In this document: positions 27,593 to 50,240 of the stretch, one piece after another
How the letters are laid out: every line of letters starts with the position of its first letter
Position numbering within the stretch: position 1 is the first letter of the stretch
Assembly (NCBI GenBank): GCA_029261535.1
Contig: JAJDBF010000079.1
Span: 577 to 64,576, forward strand
DNA from: Nitrospinaceae bacterium
GTDB taxonomy: Bacteria; Nitrospinota; Nitrospinia; Nitrospinales; Nitrospinaceae
Length of the DNA stretch: 64,000 bases
Direction: 5' to 3'
Program-made: the position numbers and the translations under genes
The notes under the pieces: model-generated
Databases searched by the model: none
Seen by the model: only the letters and a program-made list of their open reading frames with translations
Told to the model about the DNA's origin: nothing

Positions 27593-27995
27593 GGGTGGAT
27601 CCTCAAAGGGGTTAGATGGAGATGGTTTATTGGCAGTTTTCGATTGAAAATATACGACATACCCTGATAAATATAGTCCCTTTCCTGCCCAAAAGAGGGC
27701 ACGGCAAAGGATTTCAGAGGCTTGAAAAAGGTCATTATAACATTCCAGGGGCCTGTGCCAAGTTGAGGAGAAAAACCAGAACGGGCAGTTCTCAAGTTTT
27801 TTGACTAAAAAAATGCTGATATTTTGAGAAATGGGGAATAAAACTCAAAGGAGAATGAAAAATAGCTTTTATTGAGATGTCCAATATGGTAACCTCAGTT
27901 AAATAAGATGGGTTGGCACAGGTCACGTGCGCTTTTCATCTGGATGTGCGCATCGCTTAAAGAAGAATGAAAAAGCAAAAGTATTTTGTTTTCAG

Positions 27996-28022
27996 CCATC
28001 CTTCAGCGGATGGTTTTTTTTT
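27996..28022 (+). terminator. Orphan terminator-like hairpin upstream of cspA
   Basis: CCATCC (27996-28001) / GGATGG (28008-28013) stem followed by a 9-nt T run. No annotated plus-strand gene ends here. Confidence 0.45.
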
Positions 28023-28133
28023 GGCTTGAACACCTTCATGAATTTGTGGCACAGCCGGTCTTTTTTTTTAAACTGGGAGACTTCCTTCAAAATCACTTGA
28101 GAAGTTGTCCCACAATTTTTATGGAGCATCAAA

Positions 28134-28334
28134 ATGCCAGTAGGAAAAGTTAAATGGTTTAACGAAAGCAAAGGGTACGGTTTTATTGAGTCTGAAGAAG
28201 GCGAAGATCTGTTTGTTCATTTCTCTGAAATTCAGGTTGACGGGTTCAAAACCCTGAGCGAAGGTCAGACCGTGGAGTTCGAAAAATCCATGGGGCAAAA
28301 AGGACCACAAGCATCCAAAGTGGTACCTCGTTAA
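28134..28334 (+). CDS. cspA: Cold-shock protein (CspA family)
   Basis: [15 protein letters not shown] (RNP1) and DLFVHFS (RNP2). 66 aa. Confidence 0.95.
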
Positions 28335-28354
28335 ACGATCAAATTGATCTCATT

Positions 28355-28391
28355 GCCGGCAGAGCTTCGGCTCTGTCGGCTTACTTTTTTT
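28355..28391 (+). terminator. Rho-independent terminator after cspA
   Basis: GCCGGCAGAGC / GCTCTGTCGGC stem with a TTCG loop, then TTACTTTTTTTT. Confidence 0.85.
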
Positions 28392-28555
28392 AAGGGCACA
28401 TCCAGGAACTACCTGCGGCTATCAGCACCCCTTACACTCTGAGTGTTTTCGTTGCTCTGTTTGTTTCTTTAAAGGGCGCGCTTGTCGCTGTTGCAGAAAT
28501 AATGAATGTTTAGAGACCCCCTTAAGGTTCCCGAATCTTTTCCGGAAGAGGCACT

Positions 28556-28729
28556 ATGCATGAAGTAAGAGTTTATGATAAGACAGGAAATCTGAAAAAG
28601 GTGATCTCGGTCAAGGCCTTGAATAAAAGATCCAAAATGCAGATCGAAAATCCATCGTTGTATCGAAAAAATCGAAAGACAACGAAAGCGACTCCCAAAG
28701 ACACCGCGTCTGTTCCTGCGGTGGATTGA
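28556..28729 (+). CDS. Small protein (57 aa), paralog of the 48601..48810 product; absent from the ORF track
   Basis: My translation: MHEVRVYDKTGNLKKVISVKALNKRSKMQIENPSLYRKNRKTTKATPKDTASVPAVD. GAAGAGG lies 5 nt upstream of the ATG. The first 25 residues align with MFYEVRVLGKTGDIKKVISSKKLSKK of the second copy. Confidence 0.6.
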   Translation: MHEVRVYDKTGNLKKVISVKALNKRSKMQIENPSLYRKNRKTTKATPKDTASVPAVD

Positions 28730-29123
28730 GGCCCACTTTTTGTCCCCTTTTAAAAGTGGGGTGCGGAAGCCGGATTATAATATCCCTCCCGCATTTCGTT
28801 GGCAGTTCCCTCCTCTAATTTTCGCGGAAAAAATTACGGGATGTATTCTCAGGGCGTGCCCGCATTTTTATACGGGCTCCTGAAAATTCCGTAGCTTAAG
28901 AAAAACACTTTAAGCTCACACATTAAATTTGGTTTTGAGGTTTCGAGTCCAGGCATTTCGTATGTCTGAGATTGCGATGTTTTGAGTGGACCTCTCTTAC
29001 CTGAATTACTCCTGCGTATGACAACGGCGGGGGCTTGCTTTATTGAGCCACCACCAGAGTCGCGGATAATTTTGATAAGTGTTCTATTGATAAACAATAT
29101 CGAAACAGGTTGCTGAGAAATTT

Positions 29124-29302: not shown

Positions 29303-30643
29303 ATGACGAATTTAGCAACAGCCCCTGCCTTAGAGGGGTTTGCCTCCCTGAACCTGATAACGCCTATTTGCAAAGCGGTTCAGGAGGAACAATATGTTAA
29401 TCCTACGCCCATCCAGTTGAAAGCCATTCCATATTTATTGCGTGGGCGCGATATGCTGGCGTGCGCCCAGACAGGAACAGGGAAAACGGCGGCCTTTGCT
29501 CTGCCTATTTTGCAGAGACTTTCTAAATCAGAAAGAGGGCCACGGTCCAAAGGCATCCGCGCTTTGGTTCTGACTCCGACGCGTGAACTGGCGGTGCAGA
29601 TCAGTGAAAATTTTGAAATATACGGACGTCACCTCAGGTTGCGGCATTTGGTCGTGTATGGCGGGGTTAGTCTTGGCAACCAGGTTCGCTTGATAAAAAG
29701 AGGAGTGGATATTCTGGTGGCAACTCCGGGGCGTTTACTCGACTTGATTCGACAGGGGCACCTTAGACTCAACGAAGTGGAGCTGTTTGTTCTCGACGAG
29801 GCTGATCGCATGATGGATATGGGATTTCTTCCCGATGTGAGAACCATCGAAGCAAAACTTCACCCTGAGCGGCAGTCCATGTTGTTTTCTGCCACACTCC
29901 CGGCGGAGATTGAAAAACTTTCAAAGCAGTTTTTAAAGGATCCGGTAAAAGTGGTGGTAGATCCTCCATCAAGCACGGTGGAAAAAATTGATCAGCGTCT
30001 ACTGTATGTGGATCGCGAGAATAAAAGTGCCCTGCTTGAAACCGTTTTGCAGGATGAAAGCATCGAGCGCGCGCTGGTGTTCACGCGGACCAAGCATGGA
30101 GCCAACAAGATTGCCAAGAACCTCAGCAAAAGTCGAATTCGCGCTGAAGCGTTTCATGGTAATAAATCACAAGCCGCGCGCACCTTGGCTCTGGAAAAGT
30201 TTCGTTCCGGAAAAGCGAGGGTTCTGGTAGCAACCGATGTAGCATCACGCGGGTTGGATGTCGATGGCATCACGCATGTGATCAATTATGAACTGCCTAA
30301 TGAGGCCGCGAATTATGTGCACCGCATCGGTAGAACCGCGCGGGCAGGGGCCACGGGTGTCGCGATTTCATTCTGTGACGCAGGTGAACGTTTTTTCCTC
30401 CGGAATATCCAAAGGGAAATTCAAAAAGATCTGGACGTCATTGGAGGCCACCCCTTTCCAGCAAAAATTGCTCCGGTGAAATCAGGAAAAAAACGGGGTG
30501 GTGGAGCTGAGAAGAAAAACGGAGCTCCTCAGCGGGCAAAAAGGAATAATAAACCCGCTAAAAGCACTGGCTGGAAGCCGGGCAAATATTCAGCGAAAAA
30601 GAAACCCGGTTTCAAGGGTCGCCCGTCAAAAAGCAGGGATTAA
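29303..30643 (+). CDS. rhlE: DEAD-box ATP-dependent RNA helicase (RhlE-like) with a basic C-terminal tail
   Basis: Q motif, AQTGTGKTAAF, PTRELA, DEAD, SAT and HRIGRTARAG motifs. The tail is K/R/G-rich. Confidence 0.9.
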   Translation: MTNLATAPALEGFASLNLITPICKAVQEEQYVNPTPIQLKAIPYLLRGRDMLACAQTGTGKTAAFALPILQRLSKSERGPRSKGIRALVLTPTRELAVQISENFEIYGRHLRLRHLVVYGGVSLGNQVRLIKRGVDILVATPGRLLDLIRQGHLRLNEVELFVLDEADRMMDMGFLPDVRTIEAKLHPERQSMLFSATLPAEIEKLSKQFLKDPVKVVVDPPSSTVEKIDQRLLYVDRENKSALLETVLQDESIERALVFTRTKHGANKIAKNLSKSRIRAEAFHGNKSQAARTLALEKFRSGKARVLVATDVASRGLDVDGITHVINYELPNEAANYVHRIGRTARAGATGVAISFCDAGERFFLRNIQREIQKDLDVIGGHPFPAKIAPVKSGKKRGGGAEKKNGAPQRAKRNNKPAKSTGWKPGKYSAKKKPGFKGRPSKSRD

Positions 30644-47282: not shown

Positions 47283-47510
47283 TTAATGCAGATTACTTTG
47301 ATACTGGTTTAAGATTTCACCCAGCCGATCTTTAGCCTTCAACTTTTGTTTTTGAATAGTTTTCTTTTCCACTTCCTGTTCGGGTGAGAGGAATTTCATT
47401 TCGTTCAGTTCTTCAACCCGGTGTTTAAGTTTGGTGTGTTCGTCATATAATTCTTTGAACTCATGATTTTCGCCTGAGATTTTTTCCAGTAATCCAGTTT
47501 CAATTTCCAT
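47283..47510 (-). CDS. DUF465/YdcH-like coiled-coil small protein
   Basis: The HEFKELYDEHTKLKHRVEEL...EVEKKTIQKQKLKAKDRL pattern. I start at the second ATG (47510) because AAGGAG lies 6 nt upstream of it. Confidence 0.6.
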   Translation of the reverse strand: MEIETGLLEKISGENHEFKELYDEHTKLKHRVEELNEMKFLSPEQEVEKKTIQKQKLKAKDRLGEILNQYQSNLH

Positions 47511-47577
47511 TCTGTTCTCCTTCATATAAAAAACATTAAATCTGATTCCATGTAAGAGGTTGCGTGATGAAGCGATT

Positions 47578-48264
47578 TCAGTTTCCTTTATAGTTGACCT
47601 CGGCTTCAGGTTTTCTGAGGTATTGCAAGTTCAGGTTGTCCAGATCAAAACCTGATTCCCTCTCGAAATTATTAGAAGCGATTCGCCCTGCCACGCCAGC
47701 GACTGTCGGGGTTGATAGCGGAGTTGAAGGCAGGAAGCGGTCTCCCAGGTGTTCGAAAAAAAAGTCGCGGTACGGATCGACACCCGTGCCGATGAATTCT
47801 GTCGGTTGGTCAATACGTTTCAATACTTCACCGGGATGAAGAACTTCTTCGGAACCCAATAGAAATAGCCCATCCTCGGATTTTTGAAAGAGAGCATAAT
47901 ACACTTCTCCCTTCCTCGCGTCCAGCAAAGAACAGACGCGCCCGGATGAGCCCACCGAAAGGTGAGCCCAGGCCTTGAGAGATGAGATACCCAGCACTGG
48001 TTTTTCCGTGGCAAGAACAAATCCCTTGACCAGACTCAGCCCGACTCTTAACCCAGTGAACGATCCGGGGCCAAGGGTCAAAACATAGCCCGAAATATCT
48101 GCAAATGAAGTTCTCGTGTCGGACAGAACGCTATCCACCATAGACAGAATCGGGTTCGGTTCCGGTGGGTGATGTTGCTGGGATTGCTCTGACAGGATTT
48201 GTTGCTGATCAAGGAGGGCAACGCTCAGGAGCGGCGTGGAACTGTCAATCGACAATAATTTCAT
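47578..48264 (-). CDS. tsaB: tRNA t6A37 biosynthesis protein TsaB (YeaZ)
   Basis: MKLLSIDSSTPLLSVALL at the N-terminus and GPGSFTGLRVGLSLVKG. Confidence 0.85.
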   Translation of the reverse strand: MKLLSIDSSTPLLSVALLDQQQILSEQSQQHHPPEPNPILSMVDSVLSDTRTSFADISGYVLTLGPGSFTGLRVGLSLVKGFVLATEKPVLGISSLKAWAHLSVGSSGRVCSLLDARKGEVYYALFQKSEDGLFLLGSEEVLHPGEVLKRIDQPTEFIGTGVDPYRDFFFEHLGDRFLPSTPLSTPTVAGVAGRIASNNFERESGFDLDNLNLQYLRKPEAEVNYKGN

Positions 48265-48451: not shown

Positions 48452-48480
48452 TTGACAAATTACCGGTCCGGGATTATTTT
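48452..48480 (+). promoter_or_regulatory. Candidate sigma70-type promoter for the small-protein gene
   Basis: TTGACA (48452-48457), a 17-nt spacer, then TATTTT (48475-48480). This would give a ~115-nt leader. Confidence 0.4.
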
Positions 48481-48600
48481 TACTGTGGGTATTAGGTAAG
48501 AGAACTCTAAGAGTTTGAATTAACTGGTTGTACAAGAAAAGAACCGAATTTTGGTAGAACTTTGATCGCAATCGACCCAAAAAGGGGATGAGGAGGCCAC

Positions 48601-48810
48601 ATGTTCTATGAAGTCAGGGTTTTGGGCAAGACCGGTGATATAAAAAAAGTAATCTCTTCCAAAAAGCTCAGCAAGAAATTTTGGGATCAGCACACCCAGC
48701 CACAGGAGTTTTCTGGCAAGCAAAATTATGAGGAAGCGGAACCTGAGCCAGAGTGGAAGCCGGAGGTTTCTGCCGGTAAGGTGGAATTGCACAATGAGGT
48801 TTATGAGTGA
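48601..48810 (+). CDS. Small protein (69 aa), paralog of the 28556..28729 product
   Basis: GAGGAGG lies 5 nt upstream of the ATG. The N-terminus MFYEVRVLGKTGDIKKVISSKKLSKK matches the other copy. Acidic C-terminal half, with its own terminator. Confidence 0.65.
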   Translation: MFYEVRVLGKTGDIKKVISSKKLSKKFWDQHTQPQEFSGKQNYEEAEPEPEWKPEVSAGKVELHNEVYE

Positions 48811-48829
48811 GTAAAATCAGATCACCGAA

Positions 48830-48862
48830 GCCGTCTCCCTTTAAGGGGGGCGGCTTTTTTTT
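48830..48862 (+). terminator. Rho-independent terminator
   Basis: GCCGTCTCCC / GGGGGGCGGC stem (two G-U pairs) with a TTTAA loop, followed by an 8-nt T run. Confidence 0.8.
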
Positions 48863-49058
48863 ATTTGTTTTTGCCGTGCCCCGTTTTAGTGCTCTATTTA
48901 TTGTAGAATGACAAGCTCATTTATTGAGAATGATTCAAGCTTCTGGATTTTATGCAGAGGCCATAATAATTTTTATCAGGCAATGTTTCCCCCTGGTCTG
49001 CCCACTGCGCAAATTTTTGGCAGACACCAGGTGGGCAAATGATTAGAGGTTTTCTTTT

Positions 49059-50240
49059 ATGTACATCACCACCCCGGAACAACTGGTTGAATTTTGTGAA
49101 AAGCTGGGCCATCCAGAAATGATGGCAATCGATACGGAGTTTGTCCGGGAAAAAACTTACTACCATCGGTTGGGCCTTGTGCAGGTTGGAGCCAATAATC
49201 ACTATGCCGCTATCGACCCTATATCGATTCCCGATTTAAAACCCCTGCTCGACCTGATCGCCGACCCGAGTATCCTTAAAGTGTTTCATGCCGGGAAGCA
49301 GGACCTTGAAATTCTTTACAACCTGTTAGGGACAGCGGTTAGTCCTATCTTTGATACCCAGGTCGCCGCCTCCCTGCTTGGCTGGGGTGGGCAGATTTCG
49401 TTTGCCAAAGTAGTTAAGCGGGTTGTCGGTAAGACCATTCATAAAACAGAAACATATTCGGACTGGTGTCGGCGCCCCTTGAGCAAGAGTCAGATCGATT
49501 ATGCCATTGATGATGTGCGCTACCTGGTGCCGGTCTATGAGCACCTGATTAAAGCACTCACCAAAATGGGTCGTCTGGATTGGTTGGACGAAGAGTTTCT
49601 GCCATTGACGGACCCGAAGAATTTCACGCCTGCAAAACCCGAACGCCAGTTTATGAGGATAAAAAATTTCCGCACTCTCAAACCGCGAAACCTGGCTGTG
49701 TTGTGCGAACTTGCGATGTGGCGGGAGCAGGAAGCCATGCGCCGCGACTGTCTCGCAAAATTTATCGTTCGCGATGAACCTCTTCTTGAAATGGCGAGAA
49801 AGACTCCGAAGGAAGTCAGCGCACTCGAATTGATTCGTGGAATCCACATCAAGGAAATAAAAAACAACGGAAAGAAAATACTGAATGCCATTGAGCGCGG
49901 TTTGAATATGCCTGAAGAAGATATTCCGCAAATTCCGGAATCAAACAGTTATTCCACGCGCCGGGGCGTTGAGGAACTGCTGGTGGCTTACGTTCAGGTC
50001 AGATCGGAGGATTTGAAAATAGAGCCGCACGTTCTCGCAGACAGAAAGCAGATTCACGACTTTGTAAAACGTCATGAACTGAACGAGAGTCTTGAAGGAC
50101 ATTCCCTGATGACCGGCTGGCGCAACGGGTTAATCGGCGGAGAATTACACGACATGCTGATTGGCAAGGCGGGACTTTCGATCAACGATCAGGGGCGGGT
50201 CGTTCTCGTCTATGGCGGCACCGAACCCTCTTCCACCTGA
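49059..50240 (+). CDS. rnd: Ribonuclease D
   Basis: DEDD 3'-5' exonuclease motifs (AIDTEF, FHAGKQDLEIL, YAIDDVRYL) followed by an HRDC-like region. Confidence 0.85.
   Translation: MYITTPEQLVEFCEKLGHPEMMAIDTEFVREKTYYHRLGLVQVGANNHYAAIDPISIPDLKPLLDLIADPSILKVFHAGKQDLEILYNLLGTAVSPIFDTQVAASLLGWGGQISFAKVVKRVVGKTIHKTETYSDWCRRPLSKSQIDYAIDDVRYLVPVYEHLIKALTKMGRLDWLDEEFLPLTDPKNFTPAKPERQFMRIKNFRTLKPRNLAVLCELAMWREQEAMRRDCLAKFIVRDEPLLEMARKTPKEVSALELIRGIHIKEIKNNGKKILNAIERGLNMPEEDIPQIPESNSYSTRRGVEELLVAYVQVRSEDLKIEPHVLADRKQIHDFVKRHELNESLEGHSLMTGWRNGLIGGELHDMLIGKAGLSINDQGRVVLVYGGTEPSST

What the first reader, a model, noticed from the sequence alone, without database searches (positions are those of the whole stretch)
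28556..28729. Unannotated 57-aa gene, one of two paralogous small proteins placed next to RNA-metabolism genes
The ORF at 28556-28729 is too short for the supplied track. It encodes MHEVRVYDKTGNLKKVISVKALNKR... . The 69-aa ORF at 48601-48810 begins MFYEVRVLGKTGDIKKVISSKKLSKK... . About 15 of the first 25 positions are identical, while the C-terminal halves diverge (basic versus acidic). Both have good Shine-Dalgarno sequences (GAAGAGG, GAGGAGG), long leaders and their own downstream hairpins. Copy 1 sits between cspA and a DEAD-box helicase. Copy 2 sits immediately upstream of RNase D. Conservation at the protein rather than the DNA level argues for real coding genes. The context suggests a role in cold adaptation or RNA processing, perhaps as a small RNA- or ribosome-binding factor.
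Basis: seen in the sequence. Interest (0 to 1): 0.6.

Follow-up and report, generated by a model that had tools for sequence, protein, structure and literature searches.

The report
Nitrospinales small-protein family beside cspA
The two short ORFs are real genes from a previously undescribed small-protein family found only in marine nitrite-oxidising Nitrospinales; one subgroup is almost always paired with the cold-shock gene cspA and another sits upstream of RNase D, but what the proteins do is untested.

Summary
Both ORFs exist as described, and both are protein-coding genes under purifying selection. dN/dS is 0.12 (group A) and 0.15 (group B) in frame, against 0.8-1.6 in the shifted frames. 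They are 2 of at least 7 paralogs in this genome, not a pair.

- **Distribution:** the family was found in 101 of 102 Nitrospinales genomes, at 1-13 copies each. It was absent from 18 of 18 genomes of sister orders. It has 414 clusters at 50% identity in metagenomes.
- **Known relatives:** Pfam, NCBIfam, PHROGs, PDB sequences, PDB folds and viral folds gave no significant match.
- **Shape:** all members share a basic N-terminal module of about 30 aa that starts at Met1. AlphaFold2 predicts a beta-hairpin plus helix (pLDDT about 90). The tails differ: basic, acidic, motif-tipped or zinc-ribbon.
- **Group A (the finding):** a cspA gene lies next to it in 33 of 38 loci, while the outer flanks vary. 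Two paralogous cspA-A modules can occur in one genome.
- **Group B:** it sits in a conserved DUF465-tsaB / B-rnd block in 25 of 29 loci.
- **Other subgroups:** they show no link to RNA-metabolism genes.

The best guess is a small nucleic-acid-binding, probably RNA-binding, protein co-expressed with CspA. That function is inferred, not shown.

The parts
27971..28383 (+). cspA transcript region: long 5' leader plus CDS, matching the Rfam cspA thermoregulator model below its gathering score
   Evidence: RF01766, 64 bits (gathering score 78), E 2.3e-15, full model length
28134..28334 (+). cspA (66 aa cold-shock domain protein), the conserved partner gene of group A
   Evidence: PF00313 E 8.2e-28. 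A CspA homologue is adjacent to the group A gene in 33/38 loci.
28355..28390 (+). cspA 3' hairpin (GCCGGCAGAGC-TTCG-GCTCTGTCGGC) plus U-tract, lying between cspA and the small gene
   Evidence: -22.7 kcal/mol, z -5.5. The hairpin is conserved in orthologous loci with compensatory changes: 87.7% of cells paired, against 25-45% when the partners are slid. The U-tract is present in only about 10 of 25 tandem loci.
28391..28555 (+). Leader of copy A, including the Shine-Dalgarno site GAAGAGG at 28545-28551; no consensus promoter was found in it
   Evidence: Sequence. The promoter scan finds no + strand site between 28390 and 28556.
28556..28729 (+). Group A small-protein gene (57 aa, pI 10.3): basic beta-hairpin-helix module (residues 1-31) plus a basic disordered tail
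   Evidence: dN/dS 0.12; AF2 pLDDT about 90 for residues 1-30
28732..28760 (+). Weak hairpin after copy A, with no U-tract; probably not an efficient terminator
   Evidence: -14.4 kcal/mol, z -0.35
29303..30643 (+). DEAD-box (RhlE-like) RNA helicase downstream of copy A; this neighbour is conserved in one subclade only
   Evidence: PF00270/PF00271. It lies downstream of group A in 5/38 loci.
47283..48264 (-). DUF465-like gene and tsaB, divergent from copy B; part of the conserved block
   Evidence: Pfam. The block is conserved in 24 of 29 group B loci.
48452..48480 (+). Promoter-like site TTGACA-17-TATTTT, about 120 nt upstream of copy B
   Evidence: 10/12 match; a consensus match only
48601..48810 (+). 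Group B small-protein gene (69 aa, pI 5.7): the same basic N-terminal module plus an acidic tail; Shine-Dalgarno site GAGGAGG at 48590-48596
   Evidence: dN/dS 0.15
48827..48866 (+). Strong intrinsic terminator after copy B
   Evidence: 14-bp stem plus T-run; -25.2 kcal/mol, z -5.0. It is not conserved in all genomes.
49059..50240 (+). rnd (RNase D), the conserved downstream neighbour of group B
   Evidence: PF01612, PF00570, PF21293; downstream of group B in 25/29 loci

Best explanation
Shown: ORFs 28556-28729 and 48601-48810 are translated genes. They belong to a previously undescribed small-protein family seen so far only in Nitrospinales. Each member is 50-85 aa. It begins at Met1 with a basic module of about 30 residues, consensus M-[FIL]-[YFH]-[EP]-V-[RK]-[VI]-x(3,4)-G-x-[LIVM]-K-K-V-[IV]-S-x(3)-L-[SN]-x(3)-W. 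AlphaFold2 predicts this as a beta-hairpin packed on a helix. A subgroup-specific tail follows.

Shown: group A, which includes the finding, forms a conserved two-gene module with cspA. Group B sits upstream of rnd.

Inferred: the basic module binds a polyanion, most likely RNA. The group A protein is made together with CspA, either by read-through of the cspA 3' hairpin or from a shared divergent control region. It acts alongside CspA on structured RNA or on the ribosome, for example during temperature downshift. The variable tails give paralogs different partners or targets.
For: Coding status:
- Group A has dN/dS 0.12 in frame against 1.0 and 1.6 in the shifted frames. Major-allele frequencies at codon positions 1, 2 and 3 are 0.85, 0.90 and 0.59.
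- Group B has dN/dS 0.15 against 0.78 and 1.07.
- ATG plus SD is conserved in 37/38 orthologues.

Family and distribution:
- There are 7 paralogs in the genome.
- 103 and 414 database clusters match.
- The family is in 101/102 genomes of the order and 0/18 genomes of sister orders.
- Group A is in 73/101 genomes and 20/22 genera.
- Every named homologue is from Nitrospinota.

Fold:
- AF2 predicts strands 4-7 and 13-17 and a helix at 19-31, with pLDDT about 90.
- The C-type member gives the same module plus two further helical segments.
- The N-terminal module carries a net charge of +4 to +7 in all 7 paralogs.
- Some members carry a C-terminal zinc ribbon.

Link to cspA:
- cspA is adjacent in 33/38 loci.
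- The outer flanks fall into 15 downstream and 23 upstream clusters.
- The adjacency occurs in tandem and in divergent orientation. Both module types occur within one genome (L017+L020, L026+L031).
- The adjacent CspA and A proteins co-cluster in trees: 2 label changes against about 9 when shuffled, 0/500.
- The tandem spacer is only 80-110 nt. Its covarying hairpin lacks a U-tract in about 15 of 25 loci, which favours co-transcription.
- A cold-shock-type DEAD-box helicase follows in this genome and in 5 other loci.
Against:
- In this window a strong terminator (z -5.5) separates cspA from copy A, and the spacer is 221 nt.
- Five of the seven paralogs, and the C-type orthologues elsewhere, have neighbours unrelated to RNA metabolism. 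The family as a whole shows no RNA theme.
- The B-rnd adjacency is embedded in a block conserved on both sides, so it may reflect inertia rather than function.
- A 30-residue beta-hairpin-helix is too small to assign a ligand from its shape. Foldseek found nothing with E below 0.8.
- Basic charge is equally compatible with DNA binding.
Confidence: 0.4

Rival explanations
1. The proteins are small DNA-binding transcription regulators. The N-terminal beta-hairpin-helix dimerises and reads DNA, as ribbon-helix-helix or AbrB-type domains do. Each paralog controls its neighbour: A controls cspA and B controls rnd.
For: - The module is basic, starts exactly at Met1 and consists of a beta-hairpin followed by a helix.
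- Group A is kept next to cspA in divergent orientation in 8 loci, a classic regulator-target layout.
- Each gene is a stand-alone unit with its own promoter-like site and terminator.
- Some members carry zinc ribbons.
Against: - The PF04014 six-frame scan of the genome hits none of the 7 paralogs.
- hhalign probability against local AbrB/MazE proteins is below 1%.
- Pfam and NCBIfam show no RHH, HTH or AbrB match.
- No fold match was found.
- The tandem cspA-A arrangement, with a spacer of about 100 nt, looks like an operon rather than a regulator-target pair.
Confidence: 0.2
2. The proteins are protein-binding adaptors or modulators. The shared N-terminal module docks onto one common cellular machine, such as the ribosome, RNA polymerase or a protease. 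The conserved C-terminal tips (…FEINYY, …SFSFIN, …MFSED, …NEVYE) act as short linear motifs that recruit or block different partners, much as the SSB C-terminal tip does.
For: - Tails are disordered, yet their extreme C-termini are conserved within orthogroups.
- AF2 gives low pLDDT for the tails.
- Many paralogs share one module but differ in their tails.
Against: - No partner was identified.
- Group A has a plain basic tail without a conserved tip.
- The uniformly basic N-terminal module suggests a polyanion rather than a protein surface.
Confidence: 0.2
3. The family is a set of RiPP precursor peptides. The conserved N-terminal part is the leader, and the variable C-terminal part is a core modified by a radical-SAM or other enzyme.
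For: - The layout of a conserved N-terminus, a variable C-terminus and many copies per genome resembles precursor families.
- A B12-binding radical-SAM gene lies downstream of group A in 7/38 loci.
- Some tails end in Tyr-Tyr.
Against: - The radical-SAM neighbour is present in only 7/38 loci, and an earlier follow-up judged it a chance neighbour (e1-2449862).
- The paralogs are dispersed, with no shared maturation, protease or export genes nearby.
- The tails are long, hydrophilic and poor in Cys/Ser/Thr.
- The 'leader' is predicted to be a folded module with pLDDT about 90.
Confidence: 0.04
4. The ORFs are not functional genes. Their similarity would reflect a non-coding repeat, or chance ORFs in long leaders of the downstream genes.
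For: Both ORFs lie in long intergenic regions upstream of larger genes. Copy A has no detectable promoter of its own.
Against: - dN/dS is 0.12-0.15 in frame only.
- 10 of the 15 shared residues are encoded by different codons, and the flanking DNA is unrelated.
- The open frame, ATG and SD are kept in about 100 genomes.
Confidence: 0.01

Closest known systems
Small proteins co-encoded with cold-shock genes in E. coli: YobF (yobF-cspC operon) and GnsA/GnsB (beside cspG and cspI); recalled from general knowledge, not tested by sequence here beyond the Pfam scan
   Same: These are proteins of about 50-60 aa whose genes sit directly beside a csp gene. In the yobF-cspC case the two genes share an operon. 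Their functions are poorly defined and stress-linked.
   Different: There is no sequence relationship: Pfam found nothing, including the GnsAB family. The Nitrospinales family is multi-copy and restricted to one order. It has a distinct predicted beta-hairpin-helix module, and its pairing with cspA is conserved across about 20 genera.
AbrB/MazE/SpoVT 'swapped-hairpin' domain (PF04014)
   Same: The order of elements is the same: beta-strand, Gly turn, beta-strand, helix, starting at the N-terminus. The proteins are small and basic, and would probably need to dimerise.
   Different: The PF04014 six-frame scan of the genome finds the genuine AbrB-type gene (C44) but none of the 7 paralogs. hhalign probability is below 1%. 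The family lacks the second beta-hairpin of the AbrB fold.
The beta2-beta3-alpha2 element of CBS (Bateman) domains
   Same: These are the best Foldseek hits for the group A model: 27-33 aligned columns, about 27% identity, rmsd 1-3 Å. The pattern V-x-V-x-D-x-x-G-x-L-x-x-[IV]-I-[ST] is similar.
   Different: The hits have E of 0.8 or more and cover only a sub-element of a larger domain. The Pfam CBS model does not match any of 45 members. This is a resemblance of supersecondary structure, not evidence of homology.
Small basic RNA chaperones and matchmakers (the CspA family itself, Hfq, ProQ/FinO)
   Same: They are small, abundant-type proteins with basic surfaces and disordered tails, and some occur as multi-paralog families. 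The group A genes share a locus with cspA, and Nitrospinales lack Hfq (0/21 genomes).
   Different: There is no CSD, Sm or FinO fold or sequence signal. RNA binding has not been tested.

Membership tests
AbrB/MazE/SpoVT (PF04014) | A match to the family HMM or profile, with a swapped-hairpin fold of two beta-hairpins around one helix | tested here: not met
   hmmscan of 45 members found no hit at E<=1. The six-frame PF04014 scan of G000 hits only C44:893-1015 and none of the 7 paralogs. hhalign probability is 0.2-0.5%. AF2 shows a single hairpin.
Cold-shock domain (CSD, PF00313) | A five-stranded OB barrel with RNP1/RNP2 motifs | tested here: not met
   Pfam detects the CSD in the neighbouring cspA (E 8e-28) but not in the small proteins. 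tblastn with CspA finds only 2 loci in the genome, neither of them a family member.
CsrA (PF02599) / Hfq (PF17209) | A match to the family HMM | tested here: not met
   No Pfam match in 45 members. The Hfq model finds nothing in 21 Nitrospinales genomes. CsrA hits are at separate loci, and G000, which holds 7 family paralogs, has no CsrA hit.
GnsA/GnsB (Pfam GnsAB) and other known csp-adjacent small proteins | Sequence match to the family model | tested here: not met
   No Pfam or NCBIfam family reaches even E<=0.01 on the hairpin-helix module.
CBS domain (PF00571) | A complete beta-alpha-beta-beta-alpha unit, usually in pairs, with an HMM match | tested here: not met
   Only the beta-beta-alpha sub-element aligns, with Foldseek E of 0.8 or more. 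There is no Pfam hit.
RiPP precursor peptide families | A precursor gene clustered with its maturation enzyme(s) and usually with a protease or exporter | tested here: not met
   The neighbours of the 7 paralogs and of 38+29+25 orthologous loci include no shared maturation genes. A B12 radical-SAM gene is present in 7/38 group A loci only.
Phage or mobile-element small proteins (PHROGs, IMG/VR, INPHARED) | Homologues in viral genomes | tested here: not met
   In PHROGs only the zinc-ribbon tails of 2-3 members weakly match HNH/NinG. tblastn against 50,697 phage records found no match. None of 147 pattern hits in IMG/VR was confirmed.
New Nitrospinales small-protein family (defined here) | Met1-anchored basic motif [FIL]-[YFH]-x-V-[RK]-[VI]…G-x-[LIVM]-K-K-V-[IV]-S…L, length 50-85 aa, own SD | tested here: met
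   Both window ORFs score 83.6 and 111.0 bits (E 5e-23 and 1e-31) against the family HMM and align over the whole module.

The most novel reading that the evidence does not exclude
The family is a new class of RNA-binding mini-chaperone or CspA co-factor specific to Nitrospinales, which lack Hfq. The Met1-anchored basic hairpin-helix would bind RNA or the ribosome. The diversified tails (basic, acidic, motif-tipped, zinc-ribbon) would direct paralogs to different RNA-processing partners: CspA and RhlE for group A, RNase D for group B. That would make it a lineage-specific post-transcriptional regulatory layer in the ocean's main nitrite oxidisers.
Probability: 0.15. Interest if true: 0.75.

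Novelty: new variant of a known kind. Interest (0 to 1): 0.5.

Why it matters
Nitrospinales carry out most nitrite oxidation in the ocean, yet they are barely tractable genetically. A protein family that is nearly universal in the order, absent outside it, expanded to as many as 13 copies, and pinned to the cold-shock gene cspA probably reflects lineage-specific physiology. It is currently invisible in annotation: the genes are either labelled 'hypothetical protein' or not called at all.

The family gives a concrete, cheap target for biochemistry, since the proteins are 57-70 aa and should express in E. coli. It also deserves a family definition at the DUF level. If the cspA link reflects joint action on RNA, this would be a new accessory to a very well-studied stress system.

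Tried and rejected
- **Non-coding repeat or chance ORF:** rejected by codon-level tests.
- **Known families:** Pfam, NCBIfam, PHROGs, PDB sequence profiles and Foldseek against PDB and BFVD gave no significant hit.
- **AbrB/MazE idea (from memory):** tested with a PF04014 genome scan and hhalign, and rejected.
- **Phage or mobile origin:** no hits in INPHARED phages or IMG/VR. Only paralog G (zinc-ribbon) sits beside an integrase.
- **RiPP precursor:** no shared maturation genes.
- **General RNA-metabolism context for the whole family:** rejected. Only groups A and B show it.
- **Rfam on both leaders:** only the cspA thermoregulator match covering cspA itself, plus sub-threshold hits that overlap the copy B terminator.
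- **Failed or unproductive steps:** Two literature searches for Nitrospina small proteins, cold shock and proteome gave nothing relevant.

Full report
**1. Observation**

BLASTP aligns them at 40% identity over 48 residues, pairwise E 4e-10.

Over the first 25 aligned residues, 15 are identical. Ten of those 15 use different codons. Third-position identity is 9/25, and the 120 nt upstream are 27% identical, which is random. The resemblance is therefore at the protein level and is not a DNA repeat.

Both ORFs have a purine-rich Shine-Dalgarno site 4 nt before the ATG. Pfam confirms the neighbours: a cold-shock-domain protein (28134-28334), a DEAD-box helicase (29303-30643), TsaB and a DUF465-like protein (minus strand, 47283-48264), and RNase D (49059-50240).

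The terminator after copy 2 is strong (z -5.0). The hairpin after copy 1 is no better than shuffled sequence (z -0.35) and has no U-tract.

**2. More than two copies**

tblastn and an HMM search of the six-frame ORFs of the whole assembly found seven members. The assembly has 84 contigs, 3.45 Mb and 50% G+C. The window is C79:577-64576. The five members outside the window lie on contigs C68, C78, C18, C72 and C12.

All seven begin at Met1 with the same motif, M-[FIL]-[YFH]-[EP]-V-[RK]-[VI]…G-x-[LIVM]-K-K-V-[IV]-S…L-S…W. The five that were checked outside the window have a GGAGG-type SD. The C12 copy ends in a CxxC…CxxC zinc ribbon.

**3. Real genes**

Orthologues of the finding (group A) from 37 other genomes all keep an ATG start and an open frame of 52-67 codons.

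| Group | dN/dS in frame | dN/dS in shifted frames |
|---|---|---|
| A | 0.12 | 1.0 and 1.6 |
| B | 0.15 | 0.78 and 1.07 |

For group A, the first 25 codons give 0.08. Major-allele frequencies at codon positions 1, 2 and 3 are 0.85, 0.90 and 0.59.

**4. Distribution**

- A profile of the seven paralogs finds 103 clusters in the 5.8-billion-protein collection and 414 clusters at 50% identity in the 1.84-billion representative set.
- Every hit that carries an organism name is from Nitrospina, Nitrospinaceae, Ca. Nitronauta or Ca. Nitrohelix, always labelled 'hypothetical protein'.
- A pattern scan of 185,579 species genomes returned 38 confirmed loci, all Nitrospinota.
- A six-frame profile search found the family in 101 of 102 genomes of the window's order, at 1-13 copies each. 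It found none in 18 genomes of the other orders of the class.
- Group A alone is in 73/101 genomes, 43/51 high-quality genomes and 20/22 genera, with up to 5 copies.
- No relatives were found in phage records or IMG/VR contigs.

**5. No known relatives**

Nothing significant came from any of these searches:
- Pfam, on single sequences and on 45 members;
- NCBIfam;
- PHROGs;
- a profile search of PDB sequences.

The only weak PHROGs and Pfam hits (HNH, NinG, treble-clef) come from a few members and are attributed to their zinc-ribbon tails.

**6. Predicted structure**

With a 103-sequence alignment, AlphaFold2 gives the group A protein strands at 4-7 and 13-17 and a helix at 19-31. pLDDT is about 90 over residues 1-30, and the tail is disordered. 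A C-type paralog gives the same module, a longer helix (20-40) and a second helix (50-59).

Foldseek against PDB and BFVD returns nothing with E below 0.8. The top hits for the group A model are the beta-beta-alpha sub-element of CBS domains.

I recalled that AbrB/MazE domains have the same order of elements, and I tested that idea. The PF04014 model scanned over the genome finds one genuine AbrB-type gene but none of the seven paralogs. hhalign against local AbrB/MazE proteins gives probability below 1%. Membership is rejected.

The N-terminal 30 residues carry a net charge of +4 to +7 in all seven paralogs. The tails range from basic (A, +3) to acidic (B, -7).

**7. Context of group A**

A CspA homologue is adjacent to the group A gene in 33 of 38 loci. 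In 25 loci it lies on the same strand, 80-110 nt upstream. In 8 loci it is divergent, about 550 nt away.

Beyond this pair the flanks are not conserved. The next gene downstream falls into 15 clusters and the next gene upstream into 23. The DEAD-box helicase seen in the window is downstream in only 5 loci.

Both arrangements can occur in one genome (PCTK01: L017 and L020; JAJDAV01: L026 and L031). The CspA proteins of the divergent modules form their own clade (99/99). The A proteins cluster in the same way: 2 label changes against about 9 in shuffles, 0/500. The cspA-A pair has therefore persisted as a unit through duplication and rearrangement. The genome has only two cspA genes, so chance adjacency is negligible.

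In the tandem spacer a hairpin (CCGGCAGAG-loop-CTCTGCCGG) is maintained by compensatory changes. It has 87.7% of cells paired against 25-45% when the partners are slid, and 20 double-change cells against 7.7±2.6 in shuffles. It carries a U-tract in only about 10 of the 25 tandem loci. In most genomes the two genes are thus probably co-transcribed.

In this window the hairpin does have a U-tract and the spacer is 221 nt. No consensus promoter was found in it. The cspA region matches the Rfam cspA thermoregulator model below threshold (64 bits, gathering score 78, E 2e-15).

**8. Context of group B**

In 24 of 29 loci, spread over three families of the order, the arrangement is DUF465(-) tsaB(-) / B(+) rnd(+). 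rnd follows B in 25.

The block is conserved on both sides, so this is weaker evidence of a functional link than the cspA pairing. A terminator between B and rnd is present in some genomes and not evident in others.

**9. Context of the other paralogs**

Their neighbours are a DyP-like peroxidase and an arylamine N-acetyltransferase, an ankyrin protein and a TonB receptor, an HD-GYP response regulator, a DnaC-like ATPase and a CycH-Ig protein, and an integrase with DUF7694. C-type orthologues in 25 other loci again have varied neighbours. The family as a whole has no RNA-metabolism theme.

**10. Interpretation**

Shown: this is a real, strongly constrained, order-restricted, multi-copy small-protein family with a basic hairpin-helix module anchored at Met1. 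Group A forms a conserved module with cspA, and group B has a conserved position before rnd.

Inferred: the module binds a polyanion, most plausibly RNA, and group A works with CspA. I put this at about 0.4.

Rivals are a DNA-binding mini-regulator (0.2), a protein-binding adaptor with motif-tipped tails (0.2), a RiPP precursor (0.04) and a non-gene (0.01).

Hfq is absent from 21/21 Nitrospinales genomes, with positive controls. CsrA is present in 19/21. This leaves room for, but does not show, a lineage-specific RNA chaperone.

**11. Limits**

No multimer modelling was available. The literature searches found nothing on this family.

Earlier notes of this scan agree with my results on two points. 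They describe the promoter-leader-terminator layout of copy B. They also judge that a B12 radical-SAM gene beside a 60-aa Lys-rich ORF in a related genome is a chance neighbour; whether that ORF belongs to this family was not checked. My count of 7/38 loci fits that judgement.

Noticed in passing
G000 contig C12:37013-37246 (+), outside the window: A seventh paralog carries a C-terminal CPDCG…CPPC zinc ribbon. It lies between a DUF7694 gene and a phage-type integrase, so it is probably on a mobile island. Longer zinc-ribbon members also exist in metagenomes (P0216, P0231, P0234, P0239).
   Followed up: partly
L039:4001-4018 (OZ242182.1, Nitrospinales chromosome): This group A orthologue has a GTG start and an in-frame TAG at codon 6; the rest of the frame is intact and conserved. 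It could be a recent pseudogene, an assembly error or read-through. It is the only such case among the 38 loci. G071 and G062 also show one TAG inside a match.
   Followed up: partly
window 28355-28390 and the orthologous cspA 3' ends (A7): The cspA 3' hairpin keeps nearly the same stem sequence (CCGGCAGAG/CTCTGCCGG) across many genera and shows compensatory changes. It lacks a U-tract in more than half of the tandem loci. It may act as a processing or stability element, or as an attenuator, rather than a plain terminator.
   Followed up: partly
whole genomes of the order: Hfq (PF17209) is undetectable in 21/21 Nitrospinales genomes. CsrA is present in 19/21 but was not found in this assembly, which is 95% complete.
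   Followed up: partly
window 27971-28133: The terminator-like hairpin at 27994-28015, upstream of cspA, lies inside the stretch that matches the Rfam cspA thermoregulator model (RF01766, 64 bits, below the gathering score). It is probably part of the cspA 5' leader rather than an orphan terminator.
   Followed up: partly
P0249-P0252 (72-aa C-type members, JGI/IMG records): IMG names these proteins 'Holliday junction resolvasome RuvABC endonuclease subunit'. Nothing in Pfam or NCBIfam supports that name, so it looks like an annotation error that could propagate.
   Followed up: no
P0126, P0144, P0183 (79-82 aa metagenome proteins): The profile matches these proteins twice. P0126 reads MNYVVRILDRNGKLGRERV-MFNEVRILDNNGNLKKVI…, which looks like a partial tandem duplication of the N-terminal hairpin.
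   Followed up: no
P0205 (685 aa, metagenome): This long repeat protein matches the family profile in 7 stretches (…NVSAVLSKKEFQKLEWQ.F…). Whether this is convergent low-level similarity or a distant repeat-embedded relative was not resolved.
   Followed up: no
G000 contig C18:53474-53692 (-) and loci L084, L095, L101: The E-type paralog lies directly upstream of an HD-GYP response regulator, and a similar regulator appears next to relatives in three other genomes. This is a possible second conserved pairing in the family.
   Followed up: partly
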